Part shown: in pieces, positions 33,390 through 41,641 of the stretch
Position numbering within the stretch: the stretch's first letter is position 1
Layout of the letters: each line of letters opens with the position of its first letter
IMG/VR virus record: IMGVR_UViG_3300023184_000081
Location: 16,242-80,241 of that record
Source: a virus
Reading direction: 5' to 3' (one strand)
Length of the DNA: 64,000 bases
Program-made: the position numbers and the translations under genes
Notes under the pieces: model-generated
The model's database searches: none
What the model was told of the DNA's origin: nothing
Seen by the model: only the letters and a program-made list of their open reading frames with translations

Positions 33390-34097
33390 ATGAAGAAAAT
33401 TATTTTTGCACTATTGTTTGTAAGCGGTATTGCACAAGCGCAAGTAACTGGTAATGTTGGAGTGACTTCCGACTATCGTTTCCGTGGCATCAGTCAAACA
33501 CAAAATTCACAAGCTCTACAAGGCGGAATTGATTATTCTCATAAGAGTGGATTCTATGTTGGCAACTGGAATAGCAGCGTCAGTAGTCTTGTTTATACCG
33601 ACAGCATCGGTCTAGAAAATGACGTTTATGGTGGCTTTAAGAAAGAACTTTTTAAGGGCGTAACCGTCGACGTAGGATCGTATAATTATTACTTTTCGCG
33701 TTCTGGCAATGCTTTCAACAGCAATAGCAATACACATGAAGTCTATGCTGGAGTTTCGACAGGTCCGGTAAGTTTCAAGTATAGTCAGTCTCTTGGTGAT
33801 TACTTCGCCGTTGCTAATAGCAAAGGAACGAAATATGTTCAAGCTGATCTGAATATGCCTATCATAGAAAAACTAACGGGTAATGTTCATTTTGGTCACG
33901 CTTTTATTGCAAATCATAAAGATAGCAATTTTACTGATATCAAACTTGGCGCAACTTACAATATTGTTGGTGTAGATGTAGGCGCGCACTATTACACAAA
34001 TCGTGGAATGACAGCTGCCACAAAATTAGCTGATACAGTTTCTGGAGAAAAACTCTACAAAAACGCATTTGTCTTTTCTGTAGCGAAATCATTCTAA
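33390..34097 (+). CDS. TorF/Gcw_chp-family outer-membrane beta-barrel (putative porin)
   Basis: Signal peptide AQA|Q, TSDYRFRGISQT...ALQGGIDY..SGFYVGNW, C-terminal aromatic F. Confidence 0.9.
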   Translation: MKKIIFALLFVSGIAQAQVTGNVGVTSDYRFRGISQTQNSQALQGGIDYSHKSGFYVGNWNSSVSSLVYTDSIGLENDVYGGFKKELFKGVTVDVGSYNYYFSRSGNAFNSNSNTHEVYAGVSTGPVSFKYSQSLGDYFAVANSKGTKYVQADLNMPIIEKLTGNVHFGHAFIANHKDSNFTDIKLGATYNIVGVDVGAHYYTNRGMTAATKLADTVSGEKLYKNAFVFSVAKSF

Positions 34098-34179: not shown

Positions 34180-34253
34180 TTGACATTTAATCTGATATGA
34201 CTTATAATAGTTGTATATTAAATGGTAGCACAAGCAGTAACTGCTCTTTAAAA
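34180..34253 (+). promoter_or_regulatory. sigma70 promoter and boxA leader of the tRNA array
   Basis: TTGACA(34180)-17 nt-TATAAT, then TGCTCTTTAAAA at 34242-34253. Confidence 0.75.
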
Positions 34254-34267
34254 ATTTGGAAAATAGT

Positions 34268-34342
34268 GTCCTGTTTGACTTCTGGTGAGGTCACCACCCT
34301 TTCACGGTGGCAAGAGGGGTTCGAATCCCCTACAGGACGCCA
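34268..34342 (+). tRNA. tRNA-Glu(TTC)
   Basis: Cloverleaf, anticodon loop CT-TTC-AC, encoded CCA. Confidence 0.92.
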
Positions 34343-34460
34343 TATTGAAGCGCATTATTGTCTATTTCGGCGTTCCTCCGATGGGTCAGAGTGTTTATAT
34401 AGACACCCTGATAAGGAAAACAGTATCCATTGACAAGATATTGGTAGTGCGTTTCAATAT
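34343..34460 (+). ncRNA. Inter-tRNA stem-closed RNA cassette 1
   Basis: (CCA)TATTGAAGCGCATT ... AGTGCGTTTCAATA(TGG) closing stem with nested inner helices. Confidence 0.6.
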
Positions 34461-34591
34461 GGTAACATGCAACAGCATGAGAGTAACGTGATACTGGCCA
34501 GTAAGCGTTCGGACATGCAATATCTCAAAGCGGAAAGTCATGAGTCCGTAGAGAAAAAGATTTCGGTTCGATTCCGAATTGCGTGTGACCA
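34461..34591 (+). ncRNA. tRNA-like stable RNA (T4 species-I-like)
   Basis: GGTAACA/TGTGACC terminal stem, T-arm TTCGG-TTCGATT-CCGAA, 3' CCA, no anticodon arm; 131 nt. Confidence 0.65.
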
Positions 34592-34597
34592 TATTAC

Positions 34598-34671
34598 GCG
34601 GGATTAGTTAAATGGTATAATTAGAGTTTTCCAAACTCCAGTCATCAGTTCGATTCTGATATTCCGCTCCA
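34598..34671 (+). tRNA. tRNA-Gly(TCC)
   Basis: Cloverleaf, loop TT-TCC-AA, CCA. Confidence 0.88.
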
Positions 34672-34679
34672 TTTGTTGT

Positions 34680-34753
34680 TGGGGATTAGTTAAATGGTAT
34701 AACCGCGGATTTTGATTCCGCTATCACAAGTTCGATTCTTGTATCCCCTGCCA
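34680..34753 (+). tRNA. tRNA-Gln(TTG)
   Basis: Cloverleaf, loop TT-TTG-AT, CCA. Confidence 0.9.
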
Positions 34754-34783
34754 GAAAATTTTATTTAACAGAAAGGAAATTGT

Positions 34784-34816
34784 ATGAAGCGAAAATCCAA
34801 AACACGCAAGACATAG
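34784..34816 (+). CDS. Minigene MKRKSKTRKT* inside the tRNA array
   Basis: Strong RBS AGAAAGGA; the G of the TAG stop is the first base of tRNA-Lys. Confidence 0.4.
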   Translation: MKRKSKTRKT

Positions 34817-34892
34817 GGAGTGTGGTGTAAAGGCTTGCACAACGGACTTTTAATCCGCTAAGAGTTAGGTTCGATTCCTACCACTCCCACCA
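34816..34892 (+). tRNA. tRNA-Lys(TTT)
   Basis: Cloverleaf, loop CT-TTT-AA, CCA. Confidence 0.9.
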
Positions 34893-34967
34893 TATGAAAA
34901 CACATTCTTTAAGGTCTTGGTCGTTACCAGCCTGGCAAAAACGACGACAGAGTGTGTTTCCATATAG
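34893..34967 (+). ncRNA. Inter-tRNA stem-closed RNA cassette 2
   Basis: (CCA)TATGAAAACACATTCT ... AGAGTGTGTTTCCATA; inner GTCGTT/AACGAC helix. Confidence 0.6.
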
Positions 34968-34975
34968 TAGAAAAA

Positions 34976-35067
34976 GGAGAGTAATGCAGCGGGGTTGGTC
35001 CTGCGACCAGCCTTGAAAACTGGGTTCTGAGAAATCGGATGGGGTTCGACTCCTCTGCTCTCCGCCA
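34976..35067 (+). tRNA. tRNA-Ser(TGA), 8/4 fold
   Basis: 8-bp acceptor GGAGAGTA/TGCTCTCC, 4-bp T-stem, long variable arm, loop CT-TGA-AA. Confidence 0.85.
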
Positions 35068-35073
35068 ATTTTT

Positions 35074-35149
35074 GACTCGTTAGCTCAATCGGAAGAGCAC
35101 ATGCCTGTCACGCATGAGGTAAGGGGATCGAAACCCCTACGGGTCGCCA
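35074..35149 (+). tRNA. tRNA-Asp(GTC)
   Basis: Cloverleaf, loop CT-GTC-AC, CCA. Confidence 0.9.
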
Positions 35150-35157
35150 AGAATTAC

Positions 35158-35251
35158 GGAGATTTGGCTGAGCATGGTTTAAGGCAGCGGATTGCTAATC
35201 CGTCGATCGAGGAAACTTGATCCATTGGTTCGAATCCAATAATCTCCGCCA
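35158..35251 (+). tRNA. tRNA-Ser(GCT)
   Basis: Long variable arm, loop TT-GCT-AA, CCA. Confidence 0.9.
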
Positions 35252-35265
35252 GAATTAAAAGTTTT

Positions 35266-35361
35266 GCTCCCCAGCACTCGGCGTGCGGCATGCCCTTATA
35301 AAGCGTGGAGACTGGTCAGATAGGCTGGAACGGGAAGGTTCAAAACCTTCGGGGAGTACCA
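35266..35361 (+). tRNA. Atypical tRNA, anticodon TAT (Ile?) with long variable region
   Basis: Acceptor GCTCCCC/GGGGAGT, tiny D-loop, loop CT-TAT-AA, ~25-nt extra arm, T-arm GAAGG-TTCAAAA-CCTTC, CCA. Confidence 0.65.
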
Positions 35362-35366
35362 AATTT

Positions 35367-35444
35367 GGTGAGGTGGCAGAGTGGTCAAATGCAAGAGCCT
35401 GCAAAACTCTAAAATCGTCGGTTCGAATCCGACCCTCACTTCCA
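35367..35444 (+). tRNA. tRNA-Cys(GCA)
   Basis: Loop CT-GCA-AA, U73, CCA. Confidence 0.9.
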
Positions 35445-35449
35445 AACTT

Positions 35450-35524
35450 GCCCTGTTAGTTCTAGTGGTAAAACGTCGGTTTTGTAATCCGAATTCGGGT
35501 GTTCGATTCACCCACGGGGCACCA
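35450..35524 (+). tRNA. tRNA-Thr(TGT)
   Basis: Loop TT-TGT-AA, CCA. Confidence 0.9.
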
Positions 35525-35531
35525 AAGAAAT

Positions 35532-35624
35532 GGAAGTATTGATGCTATGGCGTGTGCATCCCGAGACTGTAAATCTCGTCCCTCAGGGTAAACATTACTG
35601 GTTCGACTCCAGTTACTTCCACCA
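35532..35624 (+). tRNA. tRNA-Tyr(GTA)
   Basis: Loop CT-GTA-AA, long variable arm, CCA. Confidence 0.88.
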
Positions 35625-35631
35625 GATTTAT

Positions 35632-35706
35632 TCCTCGATAGCTCAGCGGTAGAGCAGTTGACTGTTAATCAATTGGTCCGTGGTTCGATCCCACGTCGAG
35701 GAGCCA
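35632..35706 (+). tRNA. tRNA-Asn(GTT)
   Basis: Canonical cloverleaf, loop CT-GTT-AA. Confidence 0.95.
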
Positions 35707-35715
35707 GTATCAAAA

Positions 35716-35791
35716 CGGTGTGTAGCTCAGCTGGTAGAGTGCGTGGTTTGGGACCATGAGGTCGGGAGTTCGAAACTCTCCACACCGACCA
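35716..35791 (+). tRNA. tRNA-Pro(TGG)
   Basis: Canonical cloverleaf, loop TT-TGG-GA. Confidence 0.93.
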
Positions 35792-35796
35792 GAATT

Positions 35797-35883
35797 GCAA
35801 GTGTGATGGAACAGGTATACATAAGAGACTTAAAATCTCTCGCTCGCAAGGGCATGCGGGTTCGATTCCCGCCACTTGCACCA
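35797..35883 (+). tRNA. tRNA-Leu(TAA)
   Basis: Loop CT-TAA-AA, long variable arm. Confidence 0.92.
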
Positions 35884-35899
35884 TAGTGATTCAGTATTT

Positions 35900-35975
35900 G
35901 GGGGTGTAGCTCAGTTGGGAGAGCGTATGCTTTGCAAGCATAATGTCGTCGGTTCGATCCCGTCCATCTCCACCA
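35900..35975 (+). tRNA. tRNA-Ala(TGC)
   Basis: G3:U70 pair, loop TT-TGC-AA. Confidence 0.93.
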
Positions 35976-35983
35976 GATTTAAT

Positions 35984-36057
35984 GCCTCGGTAGTTTAACG
36001 GTAAAACGCCATCCTTACACGGTGGATTCGGGAGTTCAACTCTCCAACGAGGTACCA
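35984..36057 (+). tRNA. tRNA-Val(TAC)
   Basis: Loop CT-TAC-AC; mismatches at the acceptor/T-stem junction. Confidence 0.82.
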
Positions 36058-36066
36058 AAAAGTTTT

Positions 36067-36143
36067 GCCCCGGTGACGGAATTGGCATACGTGTCGGTCT
36101 TAGAAGCCGAATTTTAGGAGTTCGAGTCTCCTCTGGGGCACCA
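36067..36143 (+). tRNA. tRNA-Leu(TAG) with short variable loop
   Basis: Loop CT-TAG-AA; only ~5 nt between the anticodon arm and the T-arm. Confidence 0.88.
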
Positions 36144-36305
36144 TAAGTAACTGCATTGGTAAGGAAAGACAATGTTCATAGACTCTCGAGGGAATATGTT
36201 CATACCTCCGCTGCAGCGGAGAAAAGGAGGATGGGCAAGCGATGATTTGGGGATTTTAGACATCTCCTCTAGCTGGATACCCCACCTGCCAGTGCAGTTT
36301 CTTAT
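36144..36305 (+). ncRNA. Inter-tRNA stem-closed RNA cassette 3
   Basis: (CCA)TAAGTAACTGCATTGGTA ... TGCCAGTGCAGTTTCTTA(TGG); inner hairpin CTCCGC-TGCA-GCGGAG. Confidence 0.6.
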
Positions 36306-36381
36306 GGTAATGTAGCATAGTGACTAATGCAGTTCCTTCATACGGAAAAGATCGTTGGTTTGAGTCCAACCATTACTACCA
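36306..36381 (+). tRNA. tRNA-Met/Ile2(CAT)
   Basis: Loop TT-CAT-AC, paired 1:72 (non-initiator), CCA. Confidence 0.85.
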
Positions 36382-36388
36382 AATTTTT

Positions 36389-36465
36389 GCGCCCATAGCT
36401 CAGTGGATTAGAGCCAACGGTTTCTACCCGTTAGGTCGGCAGTTCGAATCTGTCTGGGCGCACCA
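36389..36465 (+). tRNA. tRNA-Arg(TCT)
   Basis: Loop TT-TCT-AC, CCA. Confidence 0.92.
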
Positions 36466-36471
36466 GTATTT

Positions 36472-36547
36472 ACCATCTTAGCTCAGCGGTAGTAGCAGTG
36501 TGTTGATAACGCATTGGTCAGTGGTTCGATCCCACTAGATGGTACCA
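36472..36547 (+). tRNA. tRNA-Ile(GAT)
   Basis: Loop TT-GAT-AA, CCA. Confidence 0.92.
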
Positions 36548-36552
36548 AATTT

Positions 36553-36626
36553 CTCGGTGTAGTATAATGGCATTACGGCAGCCTCCAAATCTGCTTATGG
36601 GAGTTCGATTCTCTCCGCCGGGGCCA
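36553..36626 (+). tRNA. tRNA-Trp(CCA)
   Basis: Loop CT-CCA-AA, CCA. Confidence 0.88.
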
Positions 36627-36628
36627 AT

Positions 36629-36704
36629 ATCTCTATAACTCAGCGGACAGAGTTCTTCGGTCCTAACGAAGCGGTCGCAAGTTCGAATCTTGCTAGGGAT
36701 GCCA
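36629..36704 (+). tRNA. tRNA-Arg(CCT)
   Basis: Stem CTTCG/CGAAG, loop GT-CCT-AA. Confidence 0.85.
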
Positions 36705-36709
36705 GTTTT

Positions 36710-36787
36710 AGATGGAGAGCTAGTCTGGTGATTCAGCGCGTGCCTGAAGAGCATGAGAACTCAGTTCGATTCTGAGTCCATCTACCA
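36710..36787 (+). tRNA. tRNA-Phe(GAA)
   Basis: Loop CT-GAA-GA, CCA. Confidence 0.87.
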
Positions 36788-36796
36788 AAGAACAAT

Positions 36797-36870
36797 GGTG
36801 TTGTTAATGTAATGGTTGCATAACTGTCTGTGAAACAGTTAGAGAGGGTTCGATTCCCCACTTCACCCCA
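36797..36870 (+). tRNA. tRNA-His(GTG), imperfect stems
   Basis: Loop CT-GTG-AA, G-1:C73; two U:U mismatches in the acceptor and a short T-stem. Confidence 0.72.
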
Positions 36871-36878
36871 ATAAATAT

Positions 36879-36955
36879 CGGTCCTTAACTCAATTGGATA
36901 GAGTGCCAGTCTTCGAAACTGGAGGTTGGGAGTTCGAGTCTCTCAGGATCGGCCA
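36879..36955 (+). tRNA. tRNA-Arg(TCG)
   Basis: Loop CT-TCG-AA, CCA. Confidence 0.9.
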
Positions 36956-36978
36956 ATATTTTAATGAAAGGAGTTTGT

Positions 36979-37449
36979 ATGAAGAAATTAAATTTGCAAG
37001 AGGTTAAAACATTTATAGAAGCGCAAACTCCATCGACCAAAATTTATCTAGGTTGTGATTCTGAAAAGTATAAAGCGAATGGTCAATGGTATGCAGATTA
37101 TATCTTAGCAATTGTTGTGCATATCGACGGATGTCATGGTTGCAAAATCTTCGGTGAAGTTCACACTGAAAAAGACTATGATGCTAAGGCTAGCAAGCCA
37201 TCGCTCAGATTGATGCAGGAAGTTTATAAAGTGGCAGAACTTTATCTGAAACTCGGCGAAGTATTAGAAGGTCGCGATGTAGAAGTGCATCTAGATATTA
37301 ATCCGGATATGGAATATGGCAGCAGCTGCGTTATCAATCAAGCAGTTGGTTACATAAAAGGAATGTGTAATGTCATTCCTCTTGTAAAACCCAATGCTTT
37401 TGCTGCCAGCTATGCTGCAGATAGACTAAAAAGCATAAGAGTCGCATAA
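36979..37449 (+). CDS. YkuK-family RNase H-like protein
   Basis: IYLGCDS, RLMQEV, EVHLDIN, KPNAFAASYAAD. Confidence 0.85.
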   Translation: MKKLNLQEVKTFIEAQTPSTKIYLGCDSEKYKANGQWYADYILAIVVHIDGCHGCKIFGEVHTEKDYDAKASKPSLRLMQEVYKVAELYLKLGEVLEGRDVEVHLDINPDMEYGSSCVINQAVGYIKGMCNVIPLVKPNAFAASYAADRLKSIRVA

Positions 37450-39467: not shown

Positions 39468-39683
39468 ATGAAGACGCCTGCATTTGGAACAAAAGGATAC
39501 ATAATTTTATGTGTAGACGGAAAGTATCGATTTAGAGTCTATACAGAAAAAGATTTTATTGATTACGATTTAGCTCACAGCGATTTATGCGTAGAGATAG
39601 TGGATAAAGATGCGACTTTTTATTCAGACGATCGCGGCGACAGATTGGATCACAACCCCTCAACATTAGGATATGACGAATGA
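39468..39683 (+). CDS. Hypothetical protein
   Basis: YRFRVY...DYDLAHSDL...LDHNPSTLG; ATG at 39468 preferred. Confidence 0.6.
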   Translation: MKTPAFGTKGYIILCVDGKYRFRVYTEKDFIDYDLAHSDLCVEIVDKDATFYSDDRGDRLDHNPSTLGYDE

Positions 39684-40186
39684 GTAATTATAAAACACAC
39701 GCAATAAACGAATTCCGTGCTGCAGGATGGATGGATCAGAATGGTAAATACCTTGATGAGATGCAAGAAATGATATGTAATCATGTTCTTGCTCTATTAG
39801 ATGTTTTTGCCGATGAAGGACATTCTGGCACCACTGCGCCATACACTATCGAATTGTTCTCTAAATTAGCAAAGTTTGATCCGATTGTTCCATTGACTGG
39901 TGAGGACTGGGAATGGAGTGAAGTGTCTGATGGCGACAATGGAAAAATGTATCAGAACAAACGATGCGGTGCTGTATTTAAAGACGCAAATCGACATGAT
40001 GGACAACCATATTATCTTGATGGCAAAGTGTTTTGGGAATGGTATAAGAGTGAAGATGGTGAAATGTCTAAGTCATATTTCACAAGTGCCGATTCTCAAG
40101 AGCCTATTGTATTTCCCTACACACCAAAGTCGGAGTATGTGTTTAGGGCAACAGAACAATTTCCAAATGAGGAAATTACAAAATGA
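39680..40186 (+). CDS. Conserved phage hypothetical protein
   Basis: FADEGHSGTTA...PLTGEDWEW...YQNKRC. Confidence 0.75.
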   Translation: MSNYKTHAINEFRAAGWMDQNGKYLDEMQEMICNHVLALLDVFADEGHSGTTAPYTIELFSKLAKFDPIVPLTGEDWEWSEVSDGDNGKMYQNKRCGAVFKDANRHDGQPYYLDGKVFWEWYKSEDGEMSKSYFTSADSQEPIVFPYTPKSEYVFRATEQFPNEEITK

Positions 40187-41014: not shown

Positions 41015-41584
41015 ATGCCTTCAGTATTTTTAATCGCAGATACACATTTCGGACATAAAGGAATGTGTACGTTTACGCGAAATGATGGAATTACAAAACT
41101 TAGACCATTTGATACGCCTGAAGAAATGGACGAATTCATGGTCAAAGCATGGAATGATAAAGTGAAGCCTACTGATAAAGTATATCATCTTGGCGATGTC
41201 GTCATCAATAAAAAGTCTTTGTCTATTATGGATAGACTCAATGGCGATAAAGTTCTGATTCGAGGCAACCATGATATCTTTCATGACACGGAATACAGAA
41301 AATACTTTCGTGAACTTCGTGCGTATCATGTTATGAACGGAATGATTCTGAGTCATATTCCTATTCATGATGAAAGTCTTGGTCGATTCGGAACTAACAT
41401 TCATGGACATCTACACGCAAATCGCGTAAAGAAGAATGGCGAAATTGATGTTAGATATCATTGTGTATCAGCCGAGCATGTAGATTTTACTCCGATTCTT
41501 TTTGAAGACGTTATCAAACGCATTGTAGAAGAAGGTGGACATGTCGGTTTCAAAAATGGGAATTATCAAAGCCCTGCTAGTTAA
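41015..41584 (+). CDS. Calcineurin-like metallophosphoesterase
   Basis: ADTHFGH, YHLGDV, RGNHD, LSHIP, HGHLH. Confidence 0.92.
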   Translation: MPSVFLIADTHFGHKGMCTFTRNDGITKLRPFDTPEEMDEFMVKAWNDKVKPTDKVYHLGDVVINKKSLSIMDRLNGDKVLIRGNHDIFHDTEYRKYFRELRAYHVMNGMILSHIPIHDESLGRFGTNIHGHLHANRVKKNGEIDVRYHCVSAEHVDFTPILFEDVIKRIVEEGGHVGFKNGNYQSPAS

Positions 41585-41641
41585 ATGGCATAACGATCAA
41601 TTTGTAGTGATCAGTAGGCAGTTCGATTCTGTCACAGGGTA
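41571..41641 (+). pseudogene. Degenerate tRNA-Thr(TGT)-like sequence
   Basis: D- and T-arms intact (GGCAG-TTCGATT-CTGTC), 8-nt anticodon loop, no CCA. Confidence 0.6.

What the first reader, a model, noticed from the sequence alone, without database searches (positions are those of the whole stretch)
34340..36307. Three RNA cassettes in the tRNA array share a covarying ~17-bp closing stem around unrelated cargo
Seen: each cassette starts at the CCA of a tRNA. Cassette 1 (34340-34462): CCATATTGAAGCGCATT...AGTGCGTTTCAATATGG. Cassette 2 (34890-34967): CCATATGAAAACACATT...AGTGTGTTTCCATATAG. Cassette 3 (36141-36307): CCATAAGTAACTGCATT...AGTGCAGTTTCTTATGG. The arms keep CCATA..AA.C..CATT / AGTG..GTTTC..TAT and vary compensatorily (CGCA/TGCG, CACA/TGTG, CTGCA/TGCAG), with G:U pairs that point to RNA-level structure. 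In cassettes 1 and 3 the upstream tRNA's CCA pairs with TGG overlapping the 5' end of the next RNA. The interiors (roughly 85, 45 and 130 nt) are unrelated but each is structured. Inference: either a reusable processing stem (RNase III-like, as in rRNA operons) that releases variable small RNAs (decoys, antitoxin or anti-defence RNAs) from the tRNA transcript, or a family of miniature tRNA-targeting mobile elements. I do not recognise a named family.
Basis: partly seen in the sequence, partly recalled or inferred. Interest (0 to 1): 0.85.

Follow-up and report, generated by a model that had tools for sequence, protein, structure and literature searches.

The report
Stem-closed RNA cassettes, phage tRNA array
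Three small RNA modules in a lake phage's tRNA operon are each closed by the same kind of 17-base-pair RNA helix that starts on a tRNA's CCA end. They belong to a large, phage-only RNA family that I could not find described, whose interiors are swapped between phages like cassettes and whose function is unknown.

Summary
Three stems of 15-17 of 17 pairs start exactly at the CCA of tRNA-Glu(UUC), tRNA-Lys(UUU) and tRNA-Leu(UAG), against 0.2 expected by chance.

They are RNA, not DNA repeats. In 114 unique family members found with a strand-symmetric pattern and oriented by neighbouring tRNAs, the free helix positions hold 174 G•U wobbles and 1 A•C. U16•G occurs in 100 of 114.

It gave one hit in 185,579 prokaryote species genomes, on a phage-like tRNA-array contig, and none in GenBank phages or Rfam.

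Cargos fall into at least 80 types and always keep the same orientation. The same cargo sits behind different tRNAs with different, compensated arms. The same arms at one locus hold different cargos.

C2's 44-nt cargo is nearly invariant in seven other contigs while its arms covary. C1 and C3 cargos have no relatives in the 308 loci fetched and fold no better than shuffles.

Most likely these are co-transcribed small RNAs whose helix serves as a processing and end-closing module (RNase III type, inferred). The arms also allow recombinational cargo exchange. No cleavage or function is shown.

This scan noted the same family earlier on other phage DNA.

The parts
34180..34208 (+). Sigma-70-type promoter (TTGACA, 17 nt, TATAAT) in front of the tRNA array. 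It is the likely start of the transcript that carries all three cassettes.
   Evidence: 12 of 12 consensus match. No terminator-like site on the + strand inside the array.
34267..34342 (+). tRNA-Glu(UUC). Its CCA (34340-34342) forms the first three pairs of cassette 1.
   Evidence: ARAGORN and Rfam tRNA, 49 bits. Anticodon read from the sequence.
34340..34462 (+). Cassette 1: 5' arm 34340-34356, cargo 34357-34445 (89 nt), 3' arm 34446-34462. 17 of 17 pairs, including G11•U and U16•G.
   Evidence: A lake DNA run holds one contig identical to it and another with the same arms around a different 35-nt cargo (tables 8 and 5c). L012 and L116 have identical arms with another cargo.
34461..34592 (+). 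131-nt stable-RNA-like gene right behind cassette 1. It has a terminal stem, T-arm and CCA, and resembles T4 species 1 RNA (rnaC). It is context, not part of the cassette family.
   Evidence: Fold z -3.8. It shares a ...CGUUCGGAYAUG... segment and a T-arm with T4 rnaC. 97.7% identical copy in L305.
34816..34892 (+). tRNA-Lys(UUU). Its CCA starts cassette 2.
34890..34967 (+). Cassette 2: 5' arm 34890-34906, cargo 34907-34950 (44 nt), 3' arm 34951-34967. 15 of 17 pairs.
   Evidence: The cargo is 86-98% identical in L222 (two copies), L160, L088, L291, L285 and L232. In that alignment the arms covary: 12 of 18 helix pairs changed on both sides, and 0 of 500 shuffles reached this.
36067..36143 (+). 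tRNA-Leu(UAG). Its CCA starts cassette 3.
36141..36307 (+). Cassette 3: 5' arm 36141-36157, cargo 36158-36290 (133 nt), 3' arm 36291-36307. 16 of 17 pairs. The helix extends to 22 pairs over 24 positions with A73 and U3 of the flanking tRNAs.
   Evidence: Cassettes lie between tRNA-Leu(UAG) and tRNA-Met in L020 and L022, and directly behind tRNA-Leu(UAG) in L012, L015 and L017.
36306..36381 (+). tRNA-Met(CAU). Its first two G are the last two pairs of cassette 3.
36964..37449 (+). RNase H-like (PF04308/DUF458) gene at the 3' end of the array. It is context and a candidate RNA-processing factor. No link to the cassettes is shown.
   Evidence: Pfam E 1e-16. It is adjacent to the array in G000, G001 and G002, and present in G003. 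It also sits beside tRNA arrays in many of the 36 related loci, including arrays without cassettes.

Best explanation
The three cassettes belong to a large family of small RNAs that uncultured freshwater T4-like phages carry inside their tRNA and stable-RNA operons.

**Anatomy (shown).** Each member is a hairpin module. A closing helix of about 17 bp surrounds a cargo of about 23 to 210 nt. The common form of the helix is 5'-CCAUAUUGAAGCACAUU ... AGUGUGYUUCAAUAUGG-3', with a nearly constant U16•G wobble. The helix is selected on the tRNA-sense RNA strand, is kept by compensatory change, and usually begins on the CCA of the RNA in front.

**Mechanism (inferred).**
- The modules are transcribed with the tRNAs from the promoter at 34180.
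- The helix is the processing and end-closing part. A double-strand-specific RNase of the host (RNase III type) and/or the tRNA end-processing enzymes cut the module out. These would be RNase P at the next tRNA and an endonuclease behind the CCA.
- That frees the upstream CCA and leaves the cargo as an exonuclease-resistant, stem-closed small RNA.
- The helix also insulates the flanking tRNAs from the cargo's folding.
- The cargo is the variable working part. For C2 it is a near-invariant 44-nt RNA of unknown target.
- The constant arms, together with the flanking tRNAs, give homology for recombination. That would explain why cargos are exchanged, gained and lost between phages.
For: **RNA-level helix**
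- Unbiased set of 21 cassettes from protein-anchored loci: cognate arms form 16.2 of 17 pairs, non-cognate arms 11.8. G•U 27 against A•C 8.
- Strand-symmetric scan: 114 unique cassettes, 174 G•U against 1 A•C at the free positions, U16•G in 100 of 114.
- C2 family: 12 of 18 helix pairs changed on both sides, 0 of 500 shuffles reached this.

**Co-transcription is plausible**
- A perfect sigma-70 promoter and no internal terminator.
- Nearly all cassettes in the first scan, and all homologous cargo pairs, share the tRNAs' orientation (54 against 0).

**Confined to the stable-RNA operon.** In two complete 170-kb genomes, clean long stems lie almost only at or within a few kb of the tRNA array.

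**Cargos are real RNAs in at least some families**
- C2's cargo is near-invariant in 8 copies.
- The 125-nt family has internal compensatory pairs.
- Some members sit directly behind their own promoter.

**Helix length suits bacterial RNase III**
- The minimal E. coli substrate is a 34-nt hairpin (PMC1540722).
- The distal box lies about 11 bp from the cut, and cellular substrates are usually at most about 20 bp (PMC3867540).
- Without an endonucleolytic cut, the upstream tRNA's CCA would stay paired. This is my inference.

**Exchange**
- Same locus, same arms, different cargo: L182 and L087 against L073, L092 and L095. A lake DNA run shows the same for C1 (table 5c).
- The same cargo lies behind different tRNAs.
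- Presence and absence vary behind Glu, Gln, Lys and Leu(UAG).
Against: - No RNA ends, no cleavage and no function are shown. The RNA libraries I laid were assembled contigs and cannot show transcription or ends.
- Generic RNase III recognition does not explain why one primary sequence and one U•G wobble dominate across about 80 cargo types. That pattern would fit a sequence-specific partner better.
- The sequence is nevertheless not obligatory. C2-family members carry quite different, compensated arms.
- The phages encode no RNase III, and the host is unknown.
- C1 and C3 cargos have no relatives among 308 fetched loci and fold no better than shuffles. They could be junk.
- Some members are not preceded by a tRNA yet keep CCA...UGG. 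The CCA pairing is therefore not only a by-product of tRNA ends.
Confidence: 0.5

Rival explanations
1. The constant helix is a handle for a dedicated RNA-binding protein, phage or host. The cassettes are a library of partner RNAs (decoys, guides or sponges, for example against tRNA-targeting defences) that all load onto the same protein. Processing would be secondary.
For: - One primary sequence dominates, with a near-invariant U16•G wobble and conserved A9 and A10, across about 80 unrelated cargos and more than 120 contigs.
- The conserved pairs sit at positions 1-5, 9-10 and 15-17, about one helical turn apart, as for a protein footprint. This is my inference.
- Promoter-proximal copies keep the full CCA...UGG helix without a tRNA in front.
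- An RNase H-like gene (PF04308) of unknown role is fixed next to these arrays.
- The operon lies among accessory and anti-defence genes, including Tad3.
Against: - No partner protein is identified.
- PF04308 also occurs beside arrays without cassettes: L004-L010 and phage DLP6.
- Ro/TROVE is absent from three complete cassette-bearing genomes.
- The same conserved cargo works with strongly different arms, so the sequence of the handle is not essential.
Confidence: 0.2
2. The hairpins are structural punctuation with mostly unimportant interiors. They would act as insulators or exonuclease stops between tRNAs, or simply as recombination linkers that shuffle tRNA-array modules, in the way PeSL motifs shuffle genes in T4-type phages. 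Most cargos would be neutral filler.
For: - The window's cargos fold no better than shuffles.
- C1 and C3 cargos have no relatives.
- 60 of 80 cargo clusters are singletons.
- The arrays are heavily rearranged between relatives.
- PeSL-mediated modular shuffling is documented in T4-type phages (PMC2839356).
Against: - Several cargo families are strongly conserved across distant contigs, with near-invariant sequence or internal covariation.
- Cargo orientation never flips despite the inverted arms (54 against 0).
- Some members have their own promoter.
Confidence: 0.15
3. They are miniature DNA transposable elements (MITE-like, as Correia or ERIC elements) that target the 3' side of tRNA genes. 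The stems would be terminal inverted repeats recognised by a transposase.
For: - Inverted terminal arms.
- Presence and absence polymorphism behind the same tRNA.
- The same arms lie around different interiors, and TA occurs next to both arms.
- Correia elements are also co-transcribed and bound or cut by RNase III (PMC2649163).
Against: - The arms are not true inverted repeats. They differ systematically so as to give G•U on the tRNA strand (174 against 1).
- The copies are always co-oriented with the tRNAs and confined to the stable-RNA operon.
- The interiors are not shared, with about 80 types.
- Empty sites show ordinary 4-9 nt A/T-rich spacers with no footprint or target motif.
- Where the sequence changes, the arms change by compensation. 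Selection on transposase binding would not produce that.
- The full cassette pattern gave one hit in 185,579 prokaryote species genomes, on a phage-like tRNA-array contig.
Confidence: 0.05

Closest known systems
RNase III processing stalks: helices formed by sequences flanking 16S and 23S rRNA in rrn operons, and phage T7 early-transcript sites
   Same: A double helix formed by the sequences on either side of an RNA embedded in a polycistronic stable-RNA transcript. Its length (17-25 bp) lies in the range of bacterial RNase III substrates (PMC1540722, PMC3867540).
   Different: - Cleavage is not shown here.
- The same helix sequence is reused around about 80 different small cargos in many phages.
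- It starts on a tRNA's CCA and carries a conserved U•G wobble.
- The phages encode no RNase III.
Phage T4 stable RNAs species 1 and 2 (rnaC, rnaD) in the T4 tRNA cluster
   Same: Small non-tRNA RNAs encoded inside a T4-type phage tRNA cluster, with function unknown. Cassette 1 sits directly upstream of an rnaC-like RNA, the place rnaD holds in T4.
   Different: T4 rnaD has no closing helix and no significant fold (z -0.83). There is no sequence similarity. T4 has single genes, not a swappable multi-member family.
Correia (CREE) and ERIC-type repeats of bacteria
   Same: Short elements with inverted ends that are co-transcribed, fold as RNA hairpins, and can be bound or cut by RNase III (PMC2649163). 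Their presence and absence vary.
   Different: Those are DNA-mobile. They have a shared core, occur in both orientations genome-wide, and duplicate a TA target. Here the copies are strand-asymmetric, lie only in the stable-RNA operon, have unrelated interiors and show no duplication.
PeSL mobile regulatory cassettes of T4-type phages
   Same: Short conserved motifs in T4-type genomes that mediate modular shuffling of what lies between them by recombination (PMC2839356, PMC4122927).
   Different: PeSLs are promoter-plus-terminator units acting as direct repeats around protein genes. Here an inverted pair forms one RNA helix around a small non-coding cargo.
Y RNAs, including bacterial YrlA, with Ro60/Rsr
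   Same: The 5' and 3' ends pair in a long conserved stem and the rest is a variable module. A few cargos (8 of 178) carry a T-arm-like hairpin next to the 3' arm, as in tRNA-mimicking YrlA.
   Different: No TROVE protein in three complete cassette-bearing genomes. No Rfam YrlA match on the cassettes. The helix has no bulged Ro-type site.
Murine gammaherpesvirus 68 tRNA-miRNA units and other tRNA-linked small RNAs (recalled from memory, not checked here)
   Same: A viral tRNA is followed at once by hairpin RNAs that are released by tRNA 3'-end processing.
   Different: That is a eukaryotic virus whose hairpins are Dicer substrates. It has no shared closing helix around diverse cargos.

Membership tests
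Any Rfam 15 family | Covariance-model match at or near the gathering score | tested here: not met
   At E up to 10 the cassettes gave only chance miRNA-hairpin and sX4 matches, 14.6-23.9 bits against 68-77 required. Nothing matched cassettes in 9 related loci either.
RNase III processing stalk | Helix made by the sequences flanking the released RNA, long enough for RNase III (about 11 bp or more from cut to distal box; about 15-22 bp in all) | tested here: met
   17 bp in the common form and 17-26 pairs in the stems. Length criteria taken from PMC1540722 and PMC3867540.
RNase III processing stalk | Staggered cleavage by RNase III in vivo or in vitro | not testable with these tools
   Only assembled contigs of RNA libraries were available.
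RNase III processing stalk | An RNase III available to the transcript | tested here: inconclusive
   No PF14622 match in G000-G004, three of them complete. The host is unknown, and most bacteria have RNase III.
MITE / Correia-like mobile DNA element | True terminal inverted repeats, symmetric at DNA level | tested here: not met
   174 G•U against 1 A•C at the free helix positions when oriented by the tRNAs.
MITE / Correia-like mobile DNA element | Copies with a shared interior, dispersed in both orientations | tested here: not met
   80 cargo clusters in 114 copies. Homologous cargo pairs are always in the same orientation. Nearly all cassettes are co-oriented with the tRNAs. They lie at or near the tRNA array only.
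MITE / Correia-like mobile DNA element | Target-site duplication and a recognisable empty site | tested here: not met
   The flanks are CCA and UGG, which are complementary and not direct repeats. Empty junctions are ordinary 4-9 nt A/T-rich spacers.
T4 rnaC/rnaD stable RNAs | Sequence or structure similarity to T4 species 1 or 2 | tested here: not met
   rnaD has no closing helix (z -0.83). Only the neighbouring 131-nt RNA (34461-34592) resembles rnaC.
Y RNA / YrlA-Ro60 system | A TROVE (Ro60/Rsr) protein encoded by the same genome | tested here: not met
   PF05731 is absent from G000-G003 and present only in G004.
PeSL cassette | A promoter plus terminator stem-loop acting as direct repeats around ORFs | tested here: not met
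   No promoter or terminator consensus lies in the arms. The arms are inverted and enclose non-coding cargo.

The most novel reading that the evidence does not exclude
The constant helix would be the universal adapter of a phage 'RNA cassette system'. This would be a pool of at least 80 interchangeable small RNAs, for example decoys or regulators aimed at host defences or host RNAs. Freshwater T4-like phages would plug these into their tRNA operons, express and excise them through the shared helix, possibly with a dedicated protein partner, and trade them by recombination at the arms. It would be an integron-like gene-cassette economy, but for non-coding RNAs.
Probability: 0.2. Interest if true: 0.85.

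Novelty: new variant of a known kind. Interest (0 to 1): 0.7.

Why it matters
Phage tRNA clusters are now seen as counter-defence loci, yet the non-tRNA RNAs inside them, such as T4 species 1 and 2, GOLLD and ROOL, have had no known function for decades.

This is a compact, very common and phage-restricted module: one helix with dozens of conserved payloads, exchanged between phages. If the helix is a processing or loading signal, it would be a natural design rule for inserting arbitrary RNAs into tRNA operons. The payloads would be a catalogue of candidate phage effector RNAs.

The near-invariant 44-nt cargo of cassette 2 (34907-34950) is a concrete first target for experiments.

Tried and rejected
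**Searches that found nothing**
- Rfam at gathering and at E up to 10 on the window, and at E up to 0.05 or 0.001 on 9 related loci. Nothing matched the cassettes.
- Phage-encoded RNase III: none.
- Ro/Y-RNA reading: TROVE is absent from three complete genomes.
- GenBank phages: no match to a canonical C2-family cassette.
- Literature: six full-text searches and the papers read gave no description of this family.

**Leads that did not hold**
- Cultured model: the nearest cultured carrier of the array-linked PF04308 gene, Stenotrophomonas phage DLP6, has a large tRNA array but no convincing cassette.
- Empty-site signature or target duplication: not found.
- Cargo inversion between the inverted arms: never seen.
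- tRNA-like cargo: a T-arm-like hairpin occurs in only 8 of 178 cargos.
- MotA-box or sigma-70 promoter reading of the arms: spacing and consensus do not fit (and inspection).
- The 47-codon frame through C3 (36172-36315) runs into tRNA-Met, and I did not pursue it as a gene.

**RNA evidence**
- Four lake metatranscriptome runs hold only 6-8% of the stretch's words.
- The two I laid are assembled contigs, mostly of relatives at 90-95% identity. They show neither transcription nor ends of the cassettes.
- One RNA-library contig joins 34594 back to 34457. It is 234 nt long, too long for a 138-nt circle, so a relative with two tandem rnaC-like genes is more likely. This is unresolved.
- A joint linking tRNA-Lys directly to tRNA-Met (34859 to 36306) has only 20 letters on one side. 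It probably comes from a relative, and I use it only as a hint.

A fuzzy-regex search timed out. I replaced it with BLAST.


Full report
**What the window is.** The window is part of an 80-kb IMG/VR viral contig, 43% complete. The phage is uncultured and comes from lake water: DNA runs from 9 freshwater and lake studies hold a third or more of the stretch's sampled words. Earlier notes on this genome call it T4-like (gp43, uvsX, late promoters). It carries a 2.7-kb array of 23 tRNA genes on the + strand (34267-36955). The array lies behind a perfect sigma-70-type promoter at 34180-34208, and no terminator-like site lies inside it. Around it are accessory genes: sugar and capsule enzymes, an outer-membrane-like Gcw_chp protein, an RNase H-like PF04308 protein, a DNA ligase and a Tad3 homologue.

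**Checking the observation.** The three cassettes are exactly as described.
- Their stems are the three best inverted repeats in the region.
- Each 5' arm begins at the encoded CCA of a tRNA. These are Glu(UUC), which ARAGORN mis-called and I read from the anticodon loop, Lys(UUU) and Leu(UAG).
- With G•U allowed, C1 forms 17 of 17 pairs, C2 15 of 17 and C3 16 of 17.
- Three such stems anchored on tRNA CCA ends compare with 0.21 expected in shuffles. One of 1000 shuffles reached three.
- The 5' arm motif occurs three times in the whole contig, all here.
- The whole cassettes fold far better than shuffles (z -6.1, -3.3 and -4.05).
- The cargos alone do not (z -0.98, -0.09 and -0.06). 'Each interior is structured' is therefore not supported for this window's copies.
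- The cargos are unrelated to one another.

**A family, not a local oddity.**
- *Protein-anchored loci.* Loci fetched through the two flanking proteins contain the same kind of stem right behind tRNA CCA ends in a dozen related phages. In this unbiased set of 21 cassettes, cognate arms form 16.2 of 17 pairs and non-cognate arms 11.8. Positions 6-8 and 11-14 show many double compensations. Positions 1-5 (CCAUA), 9-10 (AA) and 15-17 are mostly conserved.
- *Arm scan.* A scan of IMG/VR with the 3' arm alone found matching 5' arms in 63 of 120 loci.
- *Symmetric pattern.* A strand-symmetric two-arm pattern has 24 fixed bases, so almost no chance matches are expected. It hit once in 596 Gb of genomes from 185,579 prokaryote species, on a contig binned to an Aquiluna MAG that holds 16 tRNAs in 4.5 kb, which looks like a phage array.
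- *Known collections.* GenBank phages gave no hit, and Rfam gave no family.

**RNA or DNA?** Because the two-arm pattern is its own reverse complement, it cannot favour a strand. I oriented the 114 unique hits by their neighbouring tRNAs. The unconstrained helix positions (11, 12, 13, 16 and 17) then hold 174 G•U or U•G pairs and one A•C.
- U16•G alone occurs in 100 of 114.
- The helix ends at pair 17. Pairing decays over positions 18-20.
- The two arms are therefore systematically different, in the way that keeps an RNA helix on the tRNA-sense transcript.
- This result, the co-orientation with tRNAs and the confinement of clean long stems to the tRNA region of two complete 170-kb genomes argue strongly against DNA-level terminal inverted repeats.

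**The cargos.**
- The 114 cassettes fall into 80 cargo clusters. Homologous cargos are always in the same orientation (54 pairs against 0) and lie behind different tRNAs.
- Some families are clearly functional RNAs. The 125-nt family found behind Leu(UAG) or Lys(UUU) has two internal hairpins with compensatory changes.
- Cassette 2's 44-nt cargo recurs at 86-98% identity in seven other contigs. In that alignment the cargo is almost invariant, while the arms differ widely and always compensate. 12 of 18 helix pairs changed on both sides, 97.8% of cells are paired, and 0 of 500 shuffles reached this.
- The common arm sequence is therefore preferred but not obligatory.
- C1 and C3 cargos have no relatives among the 308 loci I held.
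- Only 8 of 178 cargos have a T-arm-like hairpin.

**Exchange.**
- The tRNA arrays of relatives are heavily rearranged. Cassettes are present or absent behind the same tRNA: Glu, Gln, Lys and Leu(UAG). Empty junctions are ordinary 4-9 nt spacers without a footprint.
- At one orthologous locus behind a TTGACC-17-TATAAT promoter, near-identical flanks and arms hold a 36-nt cargo in L087 and L182 and a 67-nt cargo in L073, L092 and L095.
- In one lake DNA run, one contig matches this window's C1, and another has the same arms around a different 35-nt interior (tables 8 and 5c). That interior has a partial relative behind a cassette arm in L181.
- In the same run, a relative carries a cassette 5' arm after the CCA of the rnaC-like RNA, where this window has only CCATATTAC (table 7).
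- These contigs were laid at 90% likeness or more and come from relatives in the community, not necessarily from this phage.

**Context and known systems.**
- The RNA just behind C1 (34461-34592) resembles T4 species 1 RNA. C1 thus holds the place of T4 rnaD, but rnaD has no closing helix.
- One relative has a GOLLD RNA inside its array. Others have group I introns or a tmRNA. These operons are general carriers of stable RNAs.
- The phages encode no RNase III.
- With one exception they encode no Ro protein.
- A PF04308 RNase H-like gene is fixed at the array's end, but it also occurs next to arrays without cassettes.

**How it most likely works.**

*Shown:* an RNA helix under selection, in a tRNA operon, around diverse and partly conserved small RNAs that are exchanged between phages.

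*Inferred:*
- The helix is the module that lets an arbitrary RNA sit between tRNAs. It keeps the cargo from interfering with tRNA folding.
- It gives a double-stranded target of the right length for a bacterial RNase III. A 34-nt hairpin is the minimal E. coli substrate (PMC1540722). The distal box lies about 11 bp from the cut, and cellular helices are usually 20 bp or less (PMC3867540).
- After the cuts it leaves the cargo closed by a stem.
- An endonucleolytic cut is needed in any case, because otherwise the upstream tRNA's CCA stays paired.
- The constant arms and flanking tRNAs then act as recombination homology, as PeSL motifs do for genes in T4-type phages (PMC2839356).

I put this at about 0.5. 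The RNase III step alone is weaker, perhaps 0.35. The dominance of one sequence and one wobble pair would fit a specific protein partner better (rival, 0.2).

**Novelty.** I found no description in Rfam or in the papers searched. The parts are known: processing stalks, and stable RNAs in phage tRNA clusters. The constant-helix, swappable-cargo arrangement is not.

This scan's earlier notes describe the same family on other phage genomes, with similar readings. Those notes are unchecked AI leads. My tests here agree with them independently. New here are the strand-symmetric wobble test, the prokaryote-genome scan, the same-locus and within-community cargo replacements, and the finding that a conserved cargo tolerates different compensated arms.

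Noticed in passing
window 34461-34592: 131-nt RNA with a terminal stem, T-arm and CCA but no anticodon arm. It resembles T4 species 1 RNA (rnaC), sharing a CGUUCGGAYAUG segment. A 97.7% identical copy lies in L305. One RNA-library contig of a relative joins 34594 back to 34457, which suggests tandem copies or, less likely, a circle.
   Followed up: partly
window 34975-35064: About 90-nt tRNA-like gene with a long variable arm that ARAGORN missed (Rfam tRNA-Sec 34.9 bits, below the cut-off of 47). It is conserved at 86-98% identity in more than 25 related loci.
   Followed up: partly
window 35252-35366: Another unassigned spacer of about 115 nt, with a T-arm-like end and CCA. It is conserved in L181 (88.6% over 105 nt) and partly in other loci.
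   Followed up: no
window 34785-34817: A ten-codon mini-ORF (MKRKSKTRKT) with a Shine-Dalgarno-like AGAAAGGAAA, in the 62-nt spacer between tRNA-Gln and tRNA-Lys.
   Followed up: no
window 35881-35899: The spacer between tRNA-Leu(UAA) and tRNA-Ala reads CCATAGTGATTCAGTATTTGG. It looks like the two outer halves of a cassette helix without top or cargo, so it may be a collapsed remnant.
   Followed up: no
window 41571-41641: A tRNA with a four-base anticodon (ttgt) by ARAGORN, Rfam tRNA 34.4 bits. It lies alone, 4.6 kb past the array, and is a possible frameshift-suppressor type.
   Followed up: no
window 36964-37449; G001, G002, G003; phage DLP6 (L313 9013-9495): An RNase H-like PF04308/DUF458 gene is fixed at the end of, or inside, the tRNA array across this phage group and in cultured Stenotrophomonas phage DLP6. 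It may be an RNA-processing factor of tRNA operons.
   Followed up: partly
window 39680-40186: Homologue of the Thoeris inhibitor Tad3 (PF25185, E 3.4e-34), 2.7 kb downstream of the array.
   Followed up: no
window 33390-34097: The phage encodes a Gcw_chp outer-membrane-type beta-barrel protein (PF09694, E 1.4e-45). It lies behind capsule and glycosyl-transferase-like genes, just upstream of the tRNA operon.
   Followed up: no
L014 7006-7471; L130 13185-13378; L144 189-441; L087 13913-14302: The loci fetched around related phage tRNA arrays also hold a GOLLD RNA (205.9 bits, with a tRNA inside it), group I introns and a betaproteobacterial-type tmRNA.
   Followed up: no
L073 8768-8868 (- strand), L087 1393-1462, L182 5397-5466: Cassettes sit directly behind a TTGACC-17-TATAAT promoter and split a T-arm-like hairpin (GGGA | cassette | UUUUGAAUCCC). 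Here the CCA is not the end of a tRNA.
   Followed up: partly
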